Shown here: piece by piece, positions 600 to 21,588 of the stretch
How the letters are laid out: each line of letters starts with the position of its first letter
Numbering within the stretch: position 1 is the stretch's first letter
Virus record (IMG/VR): IMGVR_UViG_2563366997_000002
Source of the DNA: a virus
Taxonomy: Duplodnaviria > Heunggongvirae > Uroviricota > Caudoviricetes
Direction: 5' to 3' (one strand)
DNA: 21,588 nucleotides
Notes under the pieces: model-generated
Databases searched by the model: none
The model's input: the letters and a program-made list of their open reading frames with translations, nothing else
Told to the model about the DNA's origin: nothing
Made by a program: the position numbers and the translations under genes

Positions 600-1103
600 G
601 ATTCATTAAGAGATCTGATCAATACAGGTTCCAGCTATCAATCAGGAACACTGAGGAGGAAACCAGTCACCTTTTAGCCTCTGATATTGGTTTCACTTAG
701 TGATTATGTTGTCTATGTGCCAACTATGAACTATCTTTTCTCAAAACCTGCTACTGCAAAATGGATATAAGATGTCACAGACGGACTTGCTGATTGTTGT
801 TTTTACTCTGGGCATTTTAGCCTTTGGCTATTCCATATGGTTCATTTCGAACAGAATACTTTGCTCTATATTTCATAGACTTACAAAGAATATATGAATT
901 GGGATGGTATAGACCCAAATTCATGGTCATTGCCCCTCGACGTCGGAAGGTACTTACAGATCATCTTCGCTCTTAACCTATCACATCGGCACCTACTCCA
1001 TGATGTAACAGCTCAGACCAGAAATATCTGGAAGCTTTAGGCATATTCTTGGAAGATAGACGAGCGCAAAGACGCACACAGCAATGATGTTATGTAGTAT
1101 TTT

Positions 1104-1135
1104 CCCCTTGAGTGTGCCTGCTCAAGGGGGTTTTT
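1104..1135 (+). terminator. putative Rho-independent terminator
   Basis: ccccttgag / loop tgtgcctg / ctcaagggg gives a 9-bp GC-rich stem, followed by TTTTT. The U-tract is present only in the plus orientation. Confidence 0.45.
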
Positions 1136-1150
1136 ATCGCCGTATTGTAC

Positions 1151-1219
1151 TGGCAAATATTTGTAAATAGTCTTCACCCCCACGCCTGTCACATCGGCCA
1201 CACGCGACTGGACAGGCGG
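1151..1219 (-). pseudogene. remnant of a serine DNA-invertase C-terminal HTH (second copy)
   Basis: In frame immediately after the stop of the 1220..1414 ORF, the minus strand reads PPVQSRVADVTGVGVKTIYKYLP. This is about 80% identical at nucleotide level to the HTH segment at 3160..3215 and has no start codon or catalytic domain. Confidence 0.35.
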
Positions 1220-1419
1220 TTAGTCCGGTATGTTTCTCGCGCTACTACTGCTTACGTTAACGTCTGGTAATGATCTAGCGGCGCGACGTAAAGCGGCGTT
1301 GAAAGCAATTATAGTGACCGGCCGGCATTGGTACTTCACACGGTTAGAATGGCTCTGAAATAAAAAAACATCTTCTGGATAGCGTTCTCTTCTACGAGCA
1401 ATGATCCCCTCCACTGGAG
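1220..1419 (-). pseudogene. tyrosine-recombinase-like gene, 3' part (split by IS4)
   Basis: Joining 2846..3079 to 1220..1419 across one copy of the 11-bp target duplication restores a continuous frame (...KSTPPVE-GIIARRRERYPEDVFLF...). The joined protein has an integrase-core-like segment HTGLSAGRLLSIRYDDIDGD...VKS but no downstream HxxR...Y catalytic region. Confidence 0.5.
1409..1419. repeat. IS4 target-site duplication, left copy (CTCCACTGGAG)
   Basis: Identical 11-mer at 2846..2856 directly flanks the other IS4 end. Confidence 0.85.
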
Positions 1420-2845
1420 TAATGCCGATCAGTTAAGGATCAGTTGACCGATCCAGTGGCTGTGTAAGAATCCGGAAACGCTCACTCGTTTCCGGATTTT
1501 TTTATGCACATTGGACAGGCCCTTGATTTGGTATCCCGTTACGATTCTCTGCGTAACCCACTGACTTCTCTGGGGGATTACCTCGACCCCGAACTCATCT
1601 CTCGTTGCCTTGCCGAATCAGGTACTGTAACGCTACGCAAGCGCCGTCTTCCCCTCGAAATGATGGTCTGGTGTATTGTTGGCATGGCGCTTGAGCGTAA
1701 AGAACCTCTTCACCAGATTGTGAATCGCCTGGACATCATGCTGCCGGGCAATCGCCCCTTCGTTGCCCCCAGTGCCGTTATTCAGGCCCGCCAGCGCCTG
1801 GGAAGTGAGGCTGTCCGCCGCGTGTTCACGAAAACAGCGCAGCTCTGGCATAACGCCACGCCGCATCCGCAATGGTGCGGCCTGACCCTGCTGGCCATCG
1901 ATGGTGTGTTCTGGCGCACACCGGATACACCAGAGAACGATGCAGCCTTCCCCCGCCAGACACATGCCGGGAACCCGGCGCTCTACCCGCAGGTCAAAAT
2001 GGTCTGCCAGATGGAACTGACCAGCCATCTGCTGACGGCTGCAGCCTTCGGCACGATGAAGAACAGCGAAAATGAGCTTGCTGAGCAACTTATAGAACAA
2101 ACCGGCGATAACACTCTGACGTTAATGGACAAAGGTTATTACTCACTGGGACTGTTAAATGCCTGGAGCCTGGCGGGAGAACACCGCCACTGGATGATCC
2201 CTCTCAGAAAGGGAGCGCAATATGAAGAGATCAGAAAACTGGGTAAAGGCGATCATCTGGTGAAGCTGAAAACCAGCCCGCAGGCACGAAAAAAGTGGCC
2301 GGGACTGGGAAATGAGGTGACAGCCCGCCTGCTGACCGTGACGCGCAAAGGAAAAGTCTGCCATCTGCTGACGTCGATGACGGACGCCATGCGCTTCCCC
2401 GGAGGAGAAATGGCGGATCTGTACAGTCATCGCTGGGAAATCGAACTGGGATACAGGGAGATAAAACAGACGATGCAACTGAGCAGGCTGACGCTGAGAA
2501 GTAAAAAGCCGGAGCTTGTGGAGCAAGAGCTGTGGGGTGTCTTACTGGCTTATAATCTGGTGAGATATCAGATGATTAAAATGGCGGAACATCTGAAAGG
2601 TTACTGGCCGAATCAACTGAGTTTCTCAGAATCATGCGGAATGGTGATGAGAATGCTGATGACATTGCAGGGCGCTTCACCGGGACGTATACCGGAGCTG
2701 ATGCACGATCTTGCAAGTATGGGACAACTTGTGAAATTACCGACAAGAAGGGAAAGGGCCTTCCCGAGAGTGGTAAAGGAGAGGCCCTGGAAATACCCCA
2801 CAGCCCCGAAAAAGAGCCAGTCAGTTGCTTAACTGACTGGCATTA
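1420..2845 (+). mobile_element. IS4 insertion sequence, complete copy
   Basis: 1426 bp; imperfect terminal inverted repeats (left TAATGCCGATCAGTTAAGG, right end reverse-complement TAATGCCAGTCAGTTAAGC); single 442-aa transposase ORF; flanked by an 11-bp direct repeat. Confidence 0.95.
1504..2832 (+). CDS. insG: IS4 transposase
   Basis: 442-aa [23 protein letters not shown]..., recognised as the IS4-family transposase; it occupies almost the whole IS. Confidence 0.95.
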
Positions 2846-2856
2846 CTCCACTGGAG
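2846..2856. repeat. IS4 target-site duplication, right copy (CTCCACTGGAG)
   Basis: Exact direct repeat of 1409..1419. Confidence 0.85.
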
Positions 2857-3079
2857 GGGTTGATTTAACACGTAGCTCCTTCAGGTGACCCTGTTTTCGT
2901 ATCAGTATCAAGTCACCATCAATATCATCATATCGAATACTCAGCAGCCTTCCAGCGCTTAAACCCGTGTGAAAAATTAACGCCCACAAGTCAGCCCATG
3001 TATCTGAGATGGAAACAAGATTGCTGTTAATAGTTAAAAATTGCTCAAAACTTATTGTTTTCTTACCGTTCACGAACAA
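2846..3079 (-). pseudogene. tyrosine-recombinase-like gene, 5' part (split by IS4)
   Basis: N-terminal 78 codons (apparent TTG start at 3079); the reading frame runs into the IS4 end where a stop occurs. See 1220..1419. Confidence 0.5.
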
Positions 3080-3156
3080 ACCAAACTGTTTTCAAAGCTG
3101 AATGAATTGATTAAGCCAAACGTAACATATCAGGAAAAGTAGTGAAATCTTTGCCT

Positions 3157-3369
3157 TCAAGTCGCCGGGAGGTACTTGTAGATTGTTTTCACGTCCACGC
3201 CTGTCACATCAGCCACCTGCTGCCGGGTAGCGCCGTTCTCCAGCATTCTGCGGCACCGCTCCACCACTTCTTCAGTCATTATCCGGCGGCGGCCGCCGAC
3301 TCTCTCCTGCTCCATCGCTGCGGACCGACTCGGATGCATTCGGCAAATTCTAGGCCGTGATTTTTCCAA
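3157..3369 (-). pseudogene. serine DNA-invertase (Hin/Gin/Pin/Cin family) C-terminal HTH remnant
   Basis: C-terminal 45 aa, GGRRRIMTEEVVERCRRMLENGATRQQVADVTGVDVKTIYKYLPA, aligns by eye with the Hin C-terminal DNA-binding domain. The N-terminal about 140-aa catalytic domain is absent and the 5' end overlaps the upstream 266-aa gene. Confidence 0.6.
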
Positions 3370-19374: not shown

Positions 19375-19899
19375 TCATTTTGCCGTTCGAATCGCTTCCT
19401 CAATCGCCCTACTCAGCGCGCCGGGCATTAAGCCGGCTGCCATTGACCGTGAGCGGTTCATGTAGTCAAGCGTAGGCGTAACAGGTAGAGCATCACCAAA
19501 CCTCACCAGCAGCTTAGGAGCACGCTGTTTCCGCTTTGGTCTGCGCGTACCATTCGCTGAGCGCCGGGCTCGTTTCTTTTTCGCCTTCTTCGGTTTACGC
19601 CTCTGCCAGACAGCATCAACACCATTGACCTCACCTACGAACACATTCGGCTTCGCTTTCAACTGCGACAGCTTATTTCGCGGCATGTTGCCGTATTTGT
19701 TCAGTTTGATGTTCTTTGGATTGAGCAGCGCCTGGCTGTTCAGTTTATGTTCACCACCAAATTCAAAGGGTTCGAGATATTCAGCGGCGACATCGCGCAC
19801 AAAGACTTTTGCGCGGAGGTTGTTCTTTCTGGCGCCAGCAGAGCCCACTGAGTTGACGGTGAACGGCGTCGGCGATTCCAGTTTTCGCCCCAGTGCCAC
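19375..19899 (-). CDS. hypothetical highly basic protein (174 aa)
   Basis: Long ORF between the integrase remnant and the cos-like region, same strand as the late operon; Lys/Arg-rich tract RRKPKKAKKKRARRSANGTRRPKRKQRAPK; no Cys. No family recognised; could be spurious. Confidence 0.35.
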   Translation of the reverse strand: MALGRKLESPTPFTVNSVGSAGARKNNLRAKVFVRDVAAEYLEPFEFGGEHKLNSQALLNPKNIKLNKYGNMPRNKLSQLKAKPNVFVGEVNGVDAVWQRRKPKKAKKKRARRSANGTRRPKRKQRAPKLLVRFGDALPVTPTLDYMNRSRSMAAGLMPGALSRAIEEAIRTAK

Positions 19900-20495
19900 C
19901 TTTTGCGCTGCGGCGATATCAGCGTGGTTATGTACCAGGTAATCCGTGTGTTGGTGTCGATAAGTTTCCTAAACCCCAGCGCGACCGCTACATAACTGAT
20001 GAAGAGTACATAGCTATCTTCACTCATGCGACACCTGCAGTTAAAGCCGCGATGGAAATTGCGTATCTTTGCGCTGCAAGGGTATCTGATGTTCTTAAAA
20101 TGAACTGGAATCAGATTCTTGATAAAGGAATTTTCATACAGCAAGGTAAAACTGGTATTAAACAGATCAAAGCCTGGACTGAGCGTCTTAGTGCGGCTGT
20201 GGATATTTGCAGGGAATGGGGACAGGATGGCCCTGTTATCAGGACAATGTATGGTGAGCGTTATTCATACAAGGGATTTAATGAAGCATGGAGAAAAGCG
20301 AGAAACGCGGCTTCTGAAGAACTTGGTAGGCCACTTGATTGCACCTTCCATGATCTAAAGGCTAAAGGGATCTCAGACTATGAAGGATCTGGCAGGGATA
20401 AGCAAAAATTCAGTGGTCATAAGACAGAATCACAGGTACTTGTTTACGACAGGAAAGTTAAAATCAGCCCAACGTTGAACAAGAAAATGAGATGA
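19893..20495 (+). pseudogene. tyrosine integrase, catalytic C-terminal domain only (5'-truncated)
   Basis: 200-aa ORF with an integrase catalytic-domain pattern (HDLKAKGISD ... SGHKTESQVLVYDR with the nucleophile Tyr). The frame is closed by a stop at 19860..19862 and no upstream frame encodes an integrase N-terminal domain. Ends 112 bp from the tRNA 3' end. Confidence 0.8.
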
Positions 20496-20607: not shown

Positions 20608-20697
20608 TGGCGGAGAGAGGGGGATTTGAACCCCCGGTAGAGTTGCCCCTACTCCGGTTTTCGAGACCGGTCCGTTCAGCCGCTCCGGCATCTCTCC
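20608..20697 (-). tRNA. serU: tRNA-Ser (anticodon CGA)
   Basis: The reverse complement is a 90-nt class II tRNA (GGAGAGATGCCGGAGCGGCTGAACGGACCGGTCTCGAAAACCGG...GGGGGTTCAAATCCCCCTCTCTCCGCCA) with a 7-bp acceptor stem, CGA anticodon, long variable arm and encoded CCA. Confidence 0.93.
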
Positions 20698-20790
20698 GTT
20701 CAGATGGTTGCCATGATGCCAGGAAATTTGGCATTTTAACAGTCCCTGTCCGTGCAATTTTGTTCAAGTGACGAGTTTGCGAGCAAAACG

Positions 20791-21588
20791 ATGATTAAGT
20801 GGCCCTGGAAAGTACAAGAATCAGCACATCAAACTGCCCTTCCCTGGCAGGAAGCACTATCGATCCCCCTTTTAACGGGTCTGACGGAACAGGAACAAAG
20901 CAAATTAGTCACTCTTGCCGAACGTTTTTTACAGCAAAAGCGGCTTGTTCCTTTACAGGGCTTTGAACTGGATTCATTAAGAAGCTGCCGGATAGCACTT
21001 CTATTTTGCCTACCCGTTCTGGAGTTAGGACTGGAATGGCTGGATGGTTTTCATGAAGTCTTAATTTATCCTGCGCCATTTGTGGTCGATGATGAATGGG
21101 AAGACGATATCGGTCTGGTGCATAACCAACGTATTGTTCAGTCAGGTCAGAGCTGGCAGCAAGGGCCTATCGTTTTGAACTGGTTGGATATACAAGATTC
21201 TTTTGATGCTTCTGGTTTTAACCTGATTATTCATGAAGTCGCTCATAAGCTGGACACCCGTAACGGCGATCGCGCCAGCGGAGTTCCCTTTATTCCGTTG
21301 CGTGAGGTTGCTGGCTGGGAACACGATCTTCATGCTGCAATGAACAACATTCAGGAAGAAATCGAATTGGTTGGCGAGAATGCGGCGAGCATTGATGCTT
21401 ATGCTGCCAGTGATCCTGCTGAATGTTTTGCCGTACTTTCTGAATATTTCTTTAGCGCCCCAGAACTTTTTGCTCCTCGTTTCCCTTCATTGTGGCAACG
21501 TTTCTGCCAATTTTATCAACAAGATCCTTTGCAGAGACTGCATCGCACTAATGATACAGACTCGTTTTCGGCGACGAATGTTCATTAA
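20791..21588 (+). CDS. mtfA: Mlc titration factor A (zinc-dependent peptidase family)
   Basis: 265 aa from ATG at 20791 ([23 protein letters not shown]...); the ORF track starts at 20752 on an upstream in-frame codon. HEVAH zinc-binding motif present; the stop codon is the last 3 bases of the window. Confidence 0.9.

What the first reader, a model, noticed from the sequence alone, without database searches (positions are those of the whole stretch)
1220..3079. IS4 insertion splitting a tyrosine-recombinase-like gene; ORF is reconstructable across the 11-bp duplication
A complete 1426-bp IS4 with an 11-bp target duplication (CTCCACTGGAG) interrupts a minus-strand gene. Removing the IS and one repeat copy restores a continuous 142-codon frame with an integrase-core-like segment. 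Even the restored protein lacks the catalytic HxxR...Y region and runs into the invertase-HTH remnant, so it was already degraded or is a non-canonical small recombinase-like protein.
Basis: seen in the sequence. Interest (0 to 1): 0.45.

Follow-up and report, generated by a model that had tools for sequence, protein, structure and literature searches.

The report
IS4 splits a small dead-recombinase gene
A recent IS4 jump has cut a small prophage gene whose 140-residue product is a conserved but catalytically dead, shortened relative of tyrosine recombinases; the insertion is ordinary, while the gene family is real, under selection and of unknown function.

Summary
A complete 1426-bp IS4 (1420-2845) with an 11-bp duplication (CTCCACTGGAG, 1409-1419 and 2846-2856) interrupts a minus-strand gene. 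In-silico excision gives a 140-codon ORF, and that empty site is 100% identical in 16 complete E. coli chromosomes, including strain HS.

The ORF is tyrosine-recombinase-like: PHROG integrase profile E 2.4e-8, HHalign E 7e-19 to 187-aa Pfam Phage_integrase proteins, and only tyrosine recombinases among the top 50 Foldseek hits. It was not a degraded gene before IS4 arrived. It belongs to a family (PHROG 19751) that stays 132-146 aa long down to 40% identity across Enterobacteriaceae, with dN/dS about 0.16.

The family has lost Arg-I and His-II and ends four residues after Arg-II. It therefore lacks His/Trp-III and the tyrosine nucleophile and cannot recombine DNA alone. The gene sits at the tail-fibre (attR-proximal) end of prophages, often just after a Hin-type invertase gene.

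IS4 landed here because the gene contains a CCCCTCCA-C-TGGAGGGG palindrome. Three other IS4 insertions I examined have similar targets.

The function of the protein is unknown. My best guess, which is inference only, is a non-catalytic DNA-binding accessory protein. Overall this is an ordinary IS knockout of a mildly interesting, uncharacterised pseudo-recombinase.

The parts
1420..2845 (+). Complete IS4 element, 1426 bp. Terminal inverted repeats at 1420-1437 and 2828-2845, 16 of 18 positions matching.
   Evidence: I1. It is 99-100% identical to annotated IS4 copies.
1504..2832 (+). Intact IS4 transposase gene (insG-type), 442 aa.
   Evidence: Pfam Nterm_IS4 3.1e-33 and DDE_Tnp_1 8.7e-32.
1409..1419 (.). 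Left copy of the 11-bp target-site duplication CTCCACTGGAG.
2846..2856 (.). Right copy of the 11-bp target-site duplication CTCCACTGGAG.
2857..3079 (-). 5' part of the small recombinase-like gene (codons 1-74 and 1 nt). TTG at 3079; the probable true start is GTG at 3073. As it stands it reads on through the repeat copy to a stop inside the IS4 end, giving the 78-aa ORF 2843-3079.
   Evidence: The homologues' N-termini MNGKK/MNRKK align with the GTG.
1220..1419 (-). 3' part of the small recombinase-like gene (rest of codon 75 to codon 140 plus TAA stop at 1222-1220).
1400..1419 (.). Left half of the 29-bp near-palindromic IS4 target. The empty site reads AATGATCCCCTCCA-C-TGGAGGGGTTGATT. The right half is 2846-2865.
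   Evidence: I1; hairpin in the empty allele; similar targets at three other IS4 copies.
3083..3156 (-). Upstream region of the small gene. It is homologous to a promoter-like block conserved in Klebsiella/Raoultella loci (GTTAAC..GTTAACATCTGAGATAAT). The window version has diverged (..TTTGGCTTAAT).
   Evidence: alignment. The consensus promoter scan found nothing in the E. coli allele.
3157..3369 (-). Remnant of a Hin/Pin-type serine invertase gene. Only the C-terminal HTH is left.
   Evidence: HTH_7 1.9e-9, no Resolvase domain. (aligns to residues 122-180 of an intact 183-aa invertase). (PGAP: incomplete, missing N-terminus).
1158..1201 (-). Second, 84%-identical copy of the last 44 nt of the invertase gene (partner at 3173-3216). 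It lies 18 nt after the small gene's stop and is in frame with it.
   Evidence: (D1).
19893..20495 (+). Context: the prophage's own truncated integrase (200 aa, catalytic domain only), next to tRNA-Ser(cga) at 20608-20697. It is unrelated in sequence to the small gene.

Best explanation
Shown:
- A copy of IS4 transposed recently into a cryptic, roughly 21-kb prophage remnant lying between yodB and tRNA-Ser (serU) in an E. coli chromosome.
- It hit a CCCCTCCA-C-TGGAGGGG palindrome and duplicated 11 bp. Three other IS4 copies I examined also sit in 11-12-bp palindromic targets of the form CTCC...GGAG.
- The palindrome lies inside codons 74-80 of a 138/140-codon minus-strand gene, so the gene is now split into a 78-aa and a 64-aa fragment and is inactivated.
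- The gene was intact before the insertion. It is a member of a conserved family (PHROG 19751; RefSeq WP_024186700.1, named 'site-specific integrase' or 'hypothetical protein').
- The family consists of small basic proteins (pI 9.9) with the fold of the tyrosine-recombinase catalytic domain. They derive from a clade of about 185-aa single-domain tyrosine recombinases with which they share the motif RRRxxYPxDxYLFQSHSNR.
- The family has Ser or other residues in place of Arg-I and Ser in place of His-II. It stops four residues after Arg-II, so the His/Trp-III helix and the nucleophilic Tyr are missing.
- The gene sits at the tail-fibre (attR-proximal, lambda 'b-region') end of enterobacterial prophages, usually just downstream of a Hin-type tail-fibre invertase gene. 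In the Klebsiella group it has a conserved promoter-like block of its own.

Inferred:
- The protein cannot cut or join DNA by itself.
- It is kept by selection for a non-catalytic role. Most likely it binds DNA through the retained recombinase-domain surface, either as a regulator or as a blocker of a related recombinase.
- It is expressed as an autonomous accessory ('moron') gene.
- Its loss here has no obvious consequence, because the prophage is already defective.
For: IS4 and the duplication. Empty-site allele at 100% identity in 16 genomes; annotation. Target preference: (four independent insertions, duplications of 11-12 bp, all CTCC..GGAG or CTCC..GAAG palindromes).

Family membership: phrog_19751 E 5.3e-46 over the whole length. 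There are 161 homologues, nearly all 136-144 aa. A further 18 loci in Raoultella, Klebsiella, Kluyvera, Yokenella, Superficieibacter and Pseudocitrobacter, down to 40% identity, have open frames of 132-146 aa that end at the same place.

Selection: Nei-Gojobori dN/dS is 0.10-0.25, median 0.16, in the 28 pairs with 0.1<dS<2.

Fold: AF2 pLDDT 82, pTM 0.79. The Foldseek top 50 in PDB and in BFVD are all tyrosine recombinases or integrases, TMq 0.6-0.77.

Nearest full-length relatives: 183-192-aa proteins that pass Pfam Phage_integrase. HHalign to P0159 gives 99.1% probability, E 7e-19.

Catalytic residues: alignment A3.

Synteny. Conserved upstream block. pI. Prophage remnant.
Against: - No experiment or annotated relative gives a function. 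The DNA-binding or regulator role is inference from fold, charge and selection only.
- Pfam, NCBIfam, PADLOC and PDB sequence searches give nothing.
- Only one of the five AF2 models was confident; the other four had mean pLDDT 41-62.
- No sigma-70 consensus promoter is found in the E. coli allele, and the start codon is non-ATG with a weak ribosome-binding site.
- Within the shallow E. coli/Klebsiella clade (at least 94% identity) variable codons are 11 nonsynonymous to 2 synonymous. That fits neutrality, so this particular lineage may already have been under relaxed constraint before IS4 arrived.
- Several other rearranged alleles exist.
Confidence: 0.75

Rival explanations
1. The interrupted ORF was already a dead fragment of a once full-length integrase gene. 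On this view IS4 merely hit a pseudogene.
For: It lacks the catalytic residues and the C-terminal third of the domain. It lies in a decaying prophage among other truncated genes: the invertase remnant, a frameshifted polV gene and a truncated Int. The shallow-clade substitutions are 11 nonsynonymous to 2 synonymous. Pfam gives no hit.
Against: Length and stop position are conserved at 40-96% identity in at least six genera, including sequenced phages. dN/dS is 0.10-0.25 on deeper pairs. The family has its own invariant motifs that the active relatives lack (SDTWxDLW, PVTxIAFN). It has a dedicated PHROG of matching length.
Confidence: 0.08
2. It is one half of a split recombinase. The missing C-terminal segment (His-III and Tyr) would be encoded elsewhere and joined on excision across attP, as in SSV-type integrases, or supplied in trans by another protein.
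For: The gene is the last gene before the prophage/host junction in several loci. Flp-type recombinases donate Tyr in trans (established knowledge).
Against: The stop codon is at the same place whatever lies downstream: umuD, host DNA, or the hairpin element. In phage records and in the viral contig L037 the ORF also ends at 140 aa and is followed by a convergent, unrelated 366-aa integrase. Arg-I and His-II are also lost, and Arg-II and the beta-hairpin Lys are not conserved in distant members.
Confidence: 0.03
3. It is a partial duplicate of the prophage's own integrase, created by aberrant recombination across attP, and has no independent history.
For: It lies next to attP/attR, on the opposite side of the site from int.
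Against: There is no detectable similarity to the window's own Int remnant (BLASTP E 0.56) or to the Int adjacent in L037 (hhalign E 0.42). Its nearest relatives are a separate clade of about 185-aa single-domain recombinases.
Confidence: 0.02
4. The conserved thing is not the protein but an overlapping nucleic-acid signal, for example the internal palindrome or an antisense transcript, and the ORF is incidental.
For: A 17-nt perfect hairpin followed by a T-rich stretch lies inside the gene on the antisense strand.
Against: Synonymous sites are saturated while amino acids are conserved. The perfect palindrome is specific to the E. coli lineage: it was created by the A79G and M80I changes and is not conserved.
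Confidence: 0.02

Closest known systems
IS4 (IS4 family, type element; insG transposase of E. coli K-12)
   Same: It has the same length (1426 bp), the same imperfect 18-bp ends and the same 442-aa DDE transposase with the Nterm_IS4 domain. It makes an 11-12-bp target duplication in a palindromic target. It is 99-100% identical to annotated copies.
   Different: Nothing apart from the insertion site, which is not present in any of 5426 complete E. coli genomes.
Single-domain (~183-192 aa) tyrosine recombinases of Pfam PF00589 found here (P0159, P0160, P0172, P0174, P0198, P0203...)
   Same: They share the catalytic-domain fold, 25-31% identity and the motif RRRxxYPxDxYLFQSHSNR. P0159 also sits at a prophage end next to the phage integrase.
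   Different: Those proteins keep Arg-I, the hairpin Lys, HxxR, His-III and Tyr, and they pass Pfam's threshold. The small family has lost Arg-I and His-II, is about 45 residues shorter, and carries its own invariant motifs. The function of the full-length clade is also unknown.
FimB/FimE-type fimbrial-switch recombinases (~200 aa)
   Same: They are single-domain tyrosine recombinases without an N-terminal core-binding domain, so the architecture is analogous.
   Different: There is no significant sequence relation to the small family (hhalign E 0.06, 30 columns). The relation to P0159 is only weak (E 3e-6). FimB/FimE are catalytically complete.
Lambda Int / XerA / XerH / Cre catalytic domains (PDB 1ae9, 1z1g, 5hxy, 5jk0, 1crx)
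   Same: The fold of the first ~135 residues of the catalytic domain matches (Foldseek TMq 0.6-0.77, E 3e-5 to 1e-3).
   Different: Identity is 12-19%. There is no N-terminal DNA-binding domain, no C-terminal helices and no nucleophile.

Membership tests
IS4 insertion sequence | Element of about 1426 bp with imperfect 18-bp terminal inverted repeats | tested here: met
   1420-2845, ends TAATGCCGATCAGTTAAG and TAATGCCAGTCAGTTAAG (16 of 18).
IS4 insertion sequence | Single DDE transposase with an IS4-type N-terminal domain | tested here: met
   Nterm_IS4 3.1e-33, DDE_Tnp_1 8.7e-32. The ORF is intact at 442 aa.
IS4 insertion sequence | Direct target duplication of 11-13 bp | tested here: met
   11 bp. 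The empty site with a single copy is present in 16 genomes. Three other copies have 12-bp duplications.
Tyrosine recombinase / phage integrase (Pfam PF00589) | Catalytic-domain fold | tested here: met
   AF2 model of a 96%-identical homologue. All top 50 PDB and BFVD matches are tyrosine recombinases.
Tyrosine recombinase / phage integrase (Pfam PF00589) | Score above the curated family threshold | tested here: not met
   no Pfam hit at E<=1; no NCBIfam hit. Only phrog_1 at 2.4e-8 and profile-profile similarity.
Tyrosine recombinase / phage integrase (Pfam PF00589) | Arg-I, His-II and Arg-II of the R..HxxR motif | tested here: not met
   Ser41 sits in the Arg-I column, which is variable across the family. 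SSSSAR replaces (S/T)HSxRK, so His-II is Ser. Arg-II is kept in close members but not in distant ones.
Tyrosine recombinase / phage integrase (Pfam PF00589) | His/Trp-III and the nucleophilic tyrosine | tested here: not met
   the protein ends 4 residues after Arg-II in all members. The ~45-residue segment carrying LNHSS...RY in the relatives is absent.
PHROG 19751 (phage protein family of unknown function) | Full-length match to the family profile | tested here: met
   E 5.3e-46, residues 7-137 on profile positions 5-135 of 140.
Hin/Gin/Pin serine invertase (the neighbouring remnant at 3157-3369) | N-terminal Resolvase catalytic domain plus C-terminal HTH_7 | tested here: not met
   HTH_7 only; only residues 122-180 of a 183-aa invertase are present. 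It is a remnant.
Known anti-phage defence proteins (PADLOC-DB) | Match to any defence-system model | tested here: not met
   no hit at E<=1.

The most novel reading that the evidence does not exclude
The disrupted gene may represent an unrecognised class of phage 'pseudo-recombinases'. These would be truncated, catalytically dead tyrosine-recombinase domains kept under purifying selection next to attP. They would act without chemistry, for example by occupying recombinase core sites, or by accepting but not donating the C-terminal helix that links recombinase subunits. Either way they would regulate or block site-specific recombination (integration, excision or inversion) by related enzymes.
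Probability: 0.15. Interest if true: 0.55.

Novelty: new variant of a known kind. Interest (0 to 1): 0.3.

Why it matters
The IS4 event itself is routine genome decay in a cryptic prophage. What has some value is the corrected reading of the target gene. Annotation pipelines call it 'site-specific integrase', but it cannot be one. It is a selected, shortened, non-catalytic offshoot of single-domain tyrosine recombinases, widespread in Klebsiella, Raoultella, Kluyvera and E. coli prophages at a fixed position near attP. If a role in controlling recombination or gene expression were shown, it would add a pseudo-enzyme to the tyrosine-recombinase repertoire and would correct thousands of annotations. 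The four IS4 targets compared here also give a compact picture of IS4's palindromic target preference (CTCC..GGAG).

Tried and rejected
1. Pfam, NCBIfam, PADLOC and a PDB sequence-profile search with the restored ORF or the family gave nothing useful.

I used an alignment led by P0001, which is 96% identical.

3. Idea: the 44-nt repeat of the invertase 3' end on both sides of the gene (D1) marks an att-like duplication left by an integrating element. Rejected. In other loci the second copy is absent (L005-L008), or it lies upstream of the gene and brackets other inserted genes (L009, L010/L014). It looks like a recurrent mosaic recombination joint instead.

4. Idea: the gene is split on integration, as in SSV-type integrases. 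Rejected.

5. Idea: it is a paralogue of the prophage's own Int. Rejected.

6. Idea: it is a FimB/FimE relative. Not significant.

7. Idea: read-through into the in-frame HTH remnant. The remnant is absent downstream in most homologues, so the shared frame is probably coincidence.

8. The afdb50 fold library was not available.

9. Literature searches found nothing on this family and nothing usable on IS4 target choice.

10. Rfam gave no family for the hairpin element at gathering score. There was only a weak partial match to the 3' hairpin of CssrB.
Full report
**1. The observation**

The 11-mer CTCCACTGGAG occurs exactly twice in the window, at 1409-1419 and 2846-2856. The 1426 bp between the two copies (1420-2845) begin TAATGCCGATCAGTTAAG and end with the reverse complement of TAATGCCAGTCAGTTAAG (inverted repeat I1). 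The only long ORF inside, 1504-2832(+), is 442 aa and matches Pfam Nterm_IS4 (3.1e-33) and DDE_Tnp_1 (8.7e-32). The element is 99-100% identical to annotated IS4 copies on many plasmids. It is a complete IS4 with an intact transposase and a perfect 11-bp target duplication, so the insertion is recent.

Deleting 1420-2856 joins 3079->2857 to 1419->1220 on the minus strand. The result is an uninterrupted 423-nt ORF of 140 codons plus stop.

As it stands, the gene is split into the 78-aa ORF 2843-3079, which stops inside the IS end, and the 64-aa ORF 1220-1414.

The excision is not only a thought experiment. The reconstructed 1800-bp empty site is present at 100% identity in 16 complete E. coli chromosomes, including strain HS. 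None of 5426 complete genomes has the IS4 junction. The 78-aa fragment is on record only on two tiny contigs of draft assemblies.

**2. Why IS4 landed here**

The empty site reads AATGATCCCCTCCA-C-TGGAGGGGTTGATT, a 29-bp near-palindrome with perfect 8-bp arms around the duplicated 11 bp. I extracted three unrelated IS4 insertions: one between yhjB and treF on a chromosome, and two on plasmids. Their duplications are CTCCTCCTGAAG, CTCCATCAGGAG and CTCCTTCGGGAG, each embedded in a longer palindrome. Four out of four targets therefore have the form (C)CTCC-N3-4-GGAG(G), which points to strong target selectivity.

The two E. coli-specific codon changes A79G and M80I are what make the palindrome perfect in this lineage.

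**3. What the interrupted gene is**

Pfam and NCBIfam do not recognise the restored protein. PHROGs does: phrog_19751 (unknown function, profile length 140) at E 5.3e-46 over the full length. The general integrase family phrog_1 matches at 2.4e-8.

A search of 5.8 billion proteins found 161 relatives. Nearly all are 136-144 aa and come from Klebsiella, Raoultella and E. coli, with identity down to about 60%. Some sources name them 'site-specific integrase' or 'Tyr recombinase domain-containing protein'.

A scan of one genome per species added loci in Kluyvera, Yokenella, Superficieibacter, Pseudocitrobacter and an unnamed enterobacterium at 40-46% identity. In all but two of these loci the open frame is 132-146 aa and ends a few residues after the motif (V/I)SSxSA(R). 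One exception is a frameshifted copy and the other a truncated copy.

Pairwise Nei-Gojobori dN/dS for the 28 pairs with unsaturated dS (0.1-2) is 0.10-0.25, median 0.16. A pseudogene would not keep its length, its stop position and that ratio at 40% identity. The 'already degraded' reading is therefore rejected for the family.

One caveat applies. Among nine sequences at least 94% identical to the window's copy, variable codons are 11 nonsynonymous to 2 synonymous. That is compatible with neutrality. This shallow clade, much of it in cryptic prophages, may already have been drifting. Other independently rearranged alleles exist.

**4. Relation to tyrosine recombinases**

An AlphaFold2 model was built from a 38-sequence family alignment whose first row is P0001, 96% identical to the restored ORF. 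The best model has pLDDT 82 and pTM 0.79, but the other four models were poor. Its top 50 Foldseek matches in the PDB are all tyrosine recombinases: S. aureus integrase 3nkh, lambda Int, XerH, XerA, Cre, IntI and P2 Int, with TMq 0.6-0.77. The same holds for predicted viral structures.

A profile search of 1.84 billion cluster representatives found 162 hits. After the small family itself come proteins of 183-192 aa that match over their first ~135 residues and then extend ~45 residues further. These pass Pfam Phage_integrase (E 1e-17 to 1e-23). They share the striking motif RRRxxYPxDxYLFQSHSNR with the small family. HHalign of the family against one of them, P0159, gives 99.1% probability, E 7e-19 and 32% identity over 133 columns.

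The joint alignment shows the following:
- Arg-I column: the full-length proteins have Arg-I (ALRISD), where the window protein has Ser41 (GLSAGR). This column varies across the small family.
- HxxR column: they have (S/T)HSxRK, where the small family has SSxSAR. His-II is lost. Arg-II is kept in close members but not in distant ones.
- C-terminus: the small proteins stop four residues later and lack the segment carrying LNHSS (His-III) and RY (the nucleophile).
- The small family has its own invariant motifs, SDTWxDLW and PVTxIAFNxAL, which the active relatives lack.

The protein thus has the fold of a tyrosine recombinase but fails the defining catalytic features, so I do not file it as a recombinase.

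It is also not a copy of the prophage's own integrase. There is no similarity to the truncated Int at 19893-20495 (E 0.56) or to the integrase next to a 96%-identical copy in viral contig L037 (E 0.42). FimB, the textbook single-domain recombinase, is not significantly related either (E 0.06).

**5. Surroundings**

The window is a prophage remnant of about 21 kb. In order it contains:
- mtfA (20752-21588)
- tRNA-Ser(cga) (20608-20697)
- a 200-aa integrase remnant
- terminase small and large subunits, portal, protease and decoration protein
- baseplate proteins and a tail fibre
- an acyltransferase
- a 687-aa SASA-type esterase and a 266-aa protein
- the C-terminal HTH of a Hin-type invertase (3157-3369)
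- the small gene carrying IS4
- a UmuD-like peptidase (1-393)

In empty-site genomes the next features are a tRNA fragment and yodB.

In other genera the order is tail fibre, then an intact 183-aa invertase, then sometimes one or two inserted genes, then the small gene, then either umuDC-like genes or host DNA directly. In many loci the invertase is decayed or absent while the small gene is intact, so its function does not depend on the invertase.

In K. michiganensis-type loci the gene is followed within about 100 nt by four TTTGGGGCA repeats, which are probably integrase arm sites, and then by host genes. In viral contig L037 the gene converges on a 366-aa integrase. The gene therefore occupies the attP-proximal 'b-region', on the opposite side of the attachment site from int. 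A 187-aa full-length relative (P0159) sits in the same kind of place.

Upstream of the gene, Klebsiella/Raoultella loci share a block GTTAAC..N..GTTAACATCTGAGATAAT, which resembles an extended -10 promoter and contains two GTTAAC palindromes. The window's version has diverged, and a consensus scan finds no promoter there.

The 44-nt repeat of the invertase 3' end on both sides of the gene (1158-1201 and 3173-3216, 84% identical) is not an att-type duplication. In other loci the second copy is missing or lies elsewhere.

**6. How it most likely works**

These steps are shown. IS4 inserted into a preferred palindromic target inside an intact gene and disrupted it. The gene encodes a selected, truncated domain that is recombinase-like and catalytically incompetent.

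These steps are inferred. The product is basic (pI 9.9, 15.7 kDa). It retains most of the part of the fold that contacts DNA in real recombinases. It lacks the C-terminal segment that in Cre and lambda Int carries the nucleophile and links neighbouring subunits (established structural knowledge).

The most economical mechanism is non-catalytic DNA binding. The protein could be a regulator, or it could compete with or cap a related recombinase. I put about 35% on DNA binding of some kind and about 15% on a specific role in controlling recombination. No known defence-system model matches it.

Because the host prophage lacks most early genes and has truncated int and invertase genes, the knockout probably has no phenotype.

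**7. Novelty and score**

The IS4 insertion is an ordinary event of a known kind. The family it hit is catalogued (PHROG 19751, RefSeq WP_024186700.1) but uncharacterised, and it is mis-named 'integrase' by current annotation. Recognising it as a conserved pseudo-recombinase derived from about 185-aa single-domain recombinases makes it a new variant of a known kind. Interest is modest (0.3).

Noticed in passing
Not in the window. L021 2209-2296, L022 4384-4473, L024 4377-4467, L025 4357-4447, L011 4736-4827, L012 4732-4823, L016 4412-4505, L019 3797-3884, L028 4689-4779, L003 3746-3834(-), L010 6432-6520, and viral contigs L037-L051: A conserved ~90-nt two-hairpin element lies just after the last late gene (tail fibre, invertase or the small gene). 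Hairpin 1 has a 10-12-bp stem of variable sequence, with compensatory changes in 11 of 15 predicted pairs, and a conserved loop GTATGCAAG. Hairpin 2 has a short variable stem and the conserved loop GGTGTTCATGCC. No Rfam family reaches gathering score; there is a weak partial match to the 3' hairpin of CssrB. In L037 it sits between the small gene and a convergent integrase, the position that sib/tI holds in lambda. C-A mismatches outnumber G-U pairs in the orientation of the small gene, which hints that the opposite (int-sense) strand is the functional one.
   Followed up: partly
window 1400-1419 and 2846-2865; L036, L059, L060: Four independent IS4 insertions share a palindromic target with an 11-12-bp duplication: ccCTCCACTGGAGgg, CTCCTCCTGAAG(agg), gcCTCCATCAGGAGgc and ccCTCCTTCGGGAGgg. 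The last of these looks like a terminator hairpin.
   Followed up: partly
window 1158-1201 and 3173-3216: There is a 44-nt direct repeat (84% identical) of the 3' end of the invertase gene on both sides of the small gene. The downstream copy is in the same frame as the small ORF, after its stop codon and six further codons. In Raoultella/Klebsiella loci (L009, L010/L014) similar extra copies instead bracket other inserted genes, so the invertase 3' end seems to be a recurrent joint for module exchange.
   Followed up: partly
window 2857-3079 / 1220-1419 versus L002-L004, L011, L012, L037, L039: Within the clade at least 94% identical to the window's gene, variable codons are 11 nonsynonymous to 2 synonymous, against a dN/dS of about 0.16 on deep pairs. 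Two E. coli-specific changes (A79G, M80I) create the perfect palindrome that IS4 hit.
   Followed up: partly
window 3083-3156 (minus strand); L005, L009, L013, L016, L017 upstream of the small gene: A promoter-like block is conserved upstream of the small gene. It contains two GTTAAC palindromes about 20 nt apart and TGAGATAAT (an extended -10). It is well kept in Klebsiella/Raoultella and degraded in the window. It could be an operator.
   Followed up: no
window 1-21588: The whole window is a prophage remnant of about 21 kb between tRNA-Ser(cga)/mtfA and the yodB side. Lambda-like head genes (terminase, portal, protease, gpD) are followed directly by baseplate genes. The capsid, tail-tube and early regions are missing. 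The integrase is cut down to its 200-aa catalytic domain (19893-20495).
   Followed up: partly
L031-L033 5001-5528 (P0138): A 175-aa intermediate form keeps a degenerate C-terminal segment (MLNHHDAAYTRAW) but has Lys in place of Arg-I and Ser in place of His-II. It passes Pfam Phage_integrase. It is a stand-alone chromosomal gene near minCDE/ycgLMN and is not in a prophage.
   Followed up: no
P0103, P0021, P0122, P0123 (public proteins): Other rearranged alleles of the same gene exist. There is an E. coli copy that diverges after residue 93. There are also N-terminal fusions to a tail-fibre N-terminus or to a UmuD-like fragment. The locus is therefore a frequent site of decay in cryptic prophages.
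   Followed up: no
L004 4333-5817 (Escherichia phage vB_EcoS-733R5): In this phage a gene for a retron-type reverse transcriptase lies immediately beyond the invertase remnant, next to the small gene module.
   Followed up: no
window 1103-1140 (+): A strong terminator-like hairpin (TCCCCTTGAG...CTCAAGGGGG followed by TTTTTAT) lies on the plus strand just beyond the HTH remnant. It faces the small plus-strand ORFs at 772-1040.
   Followed up: no
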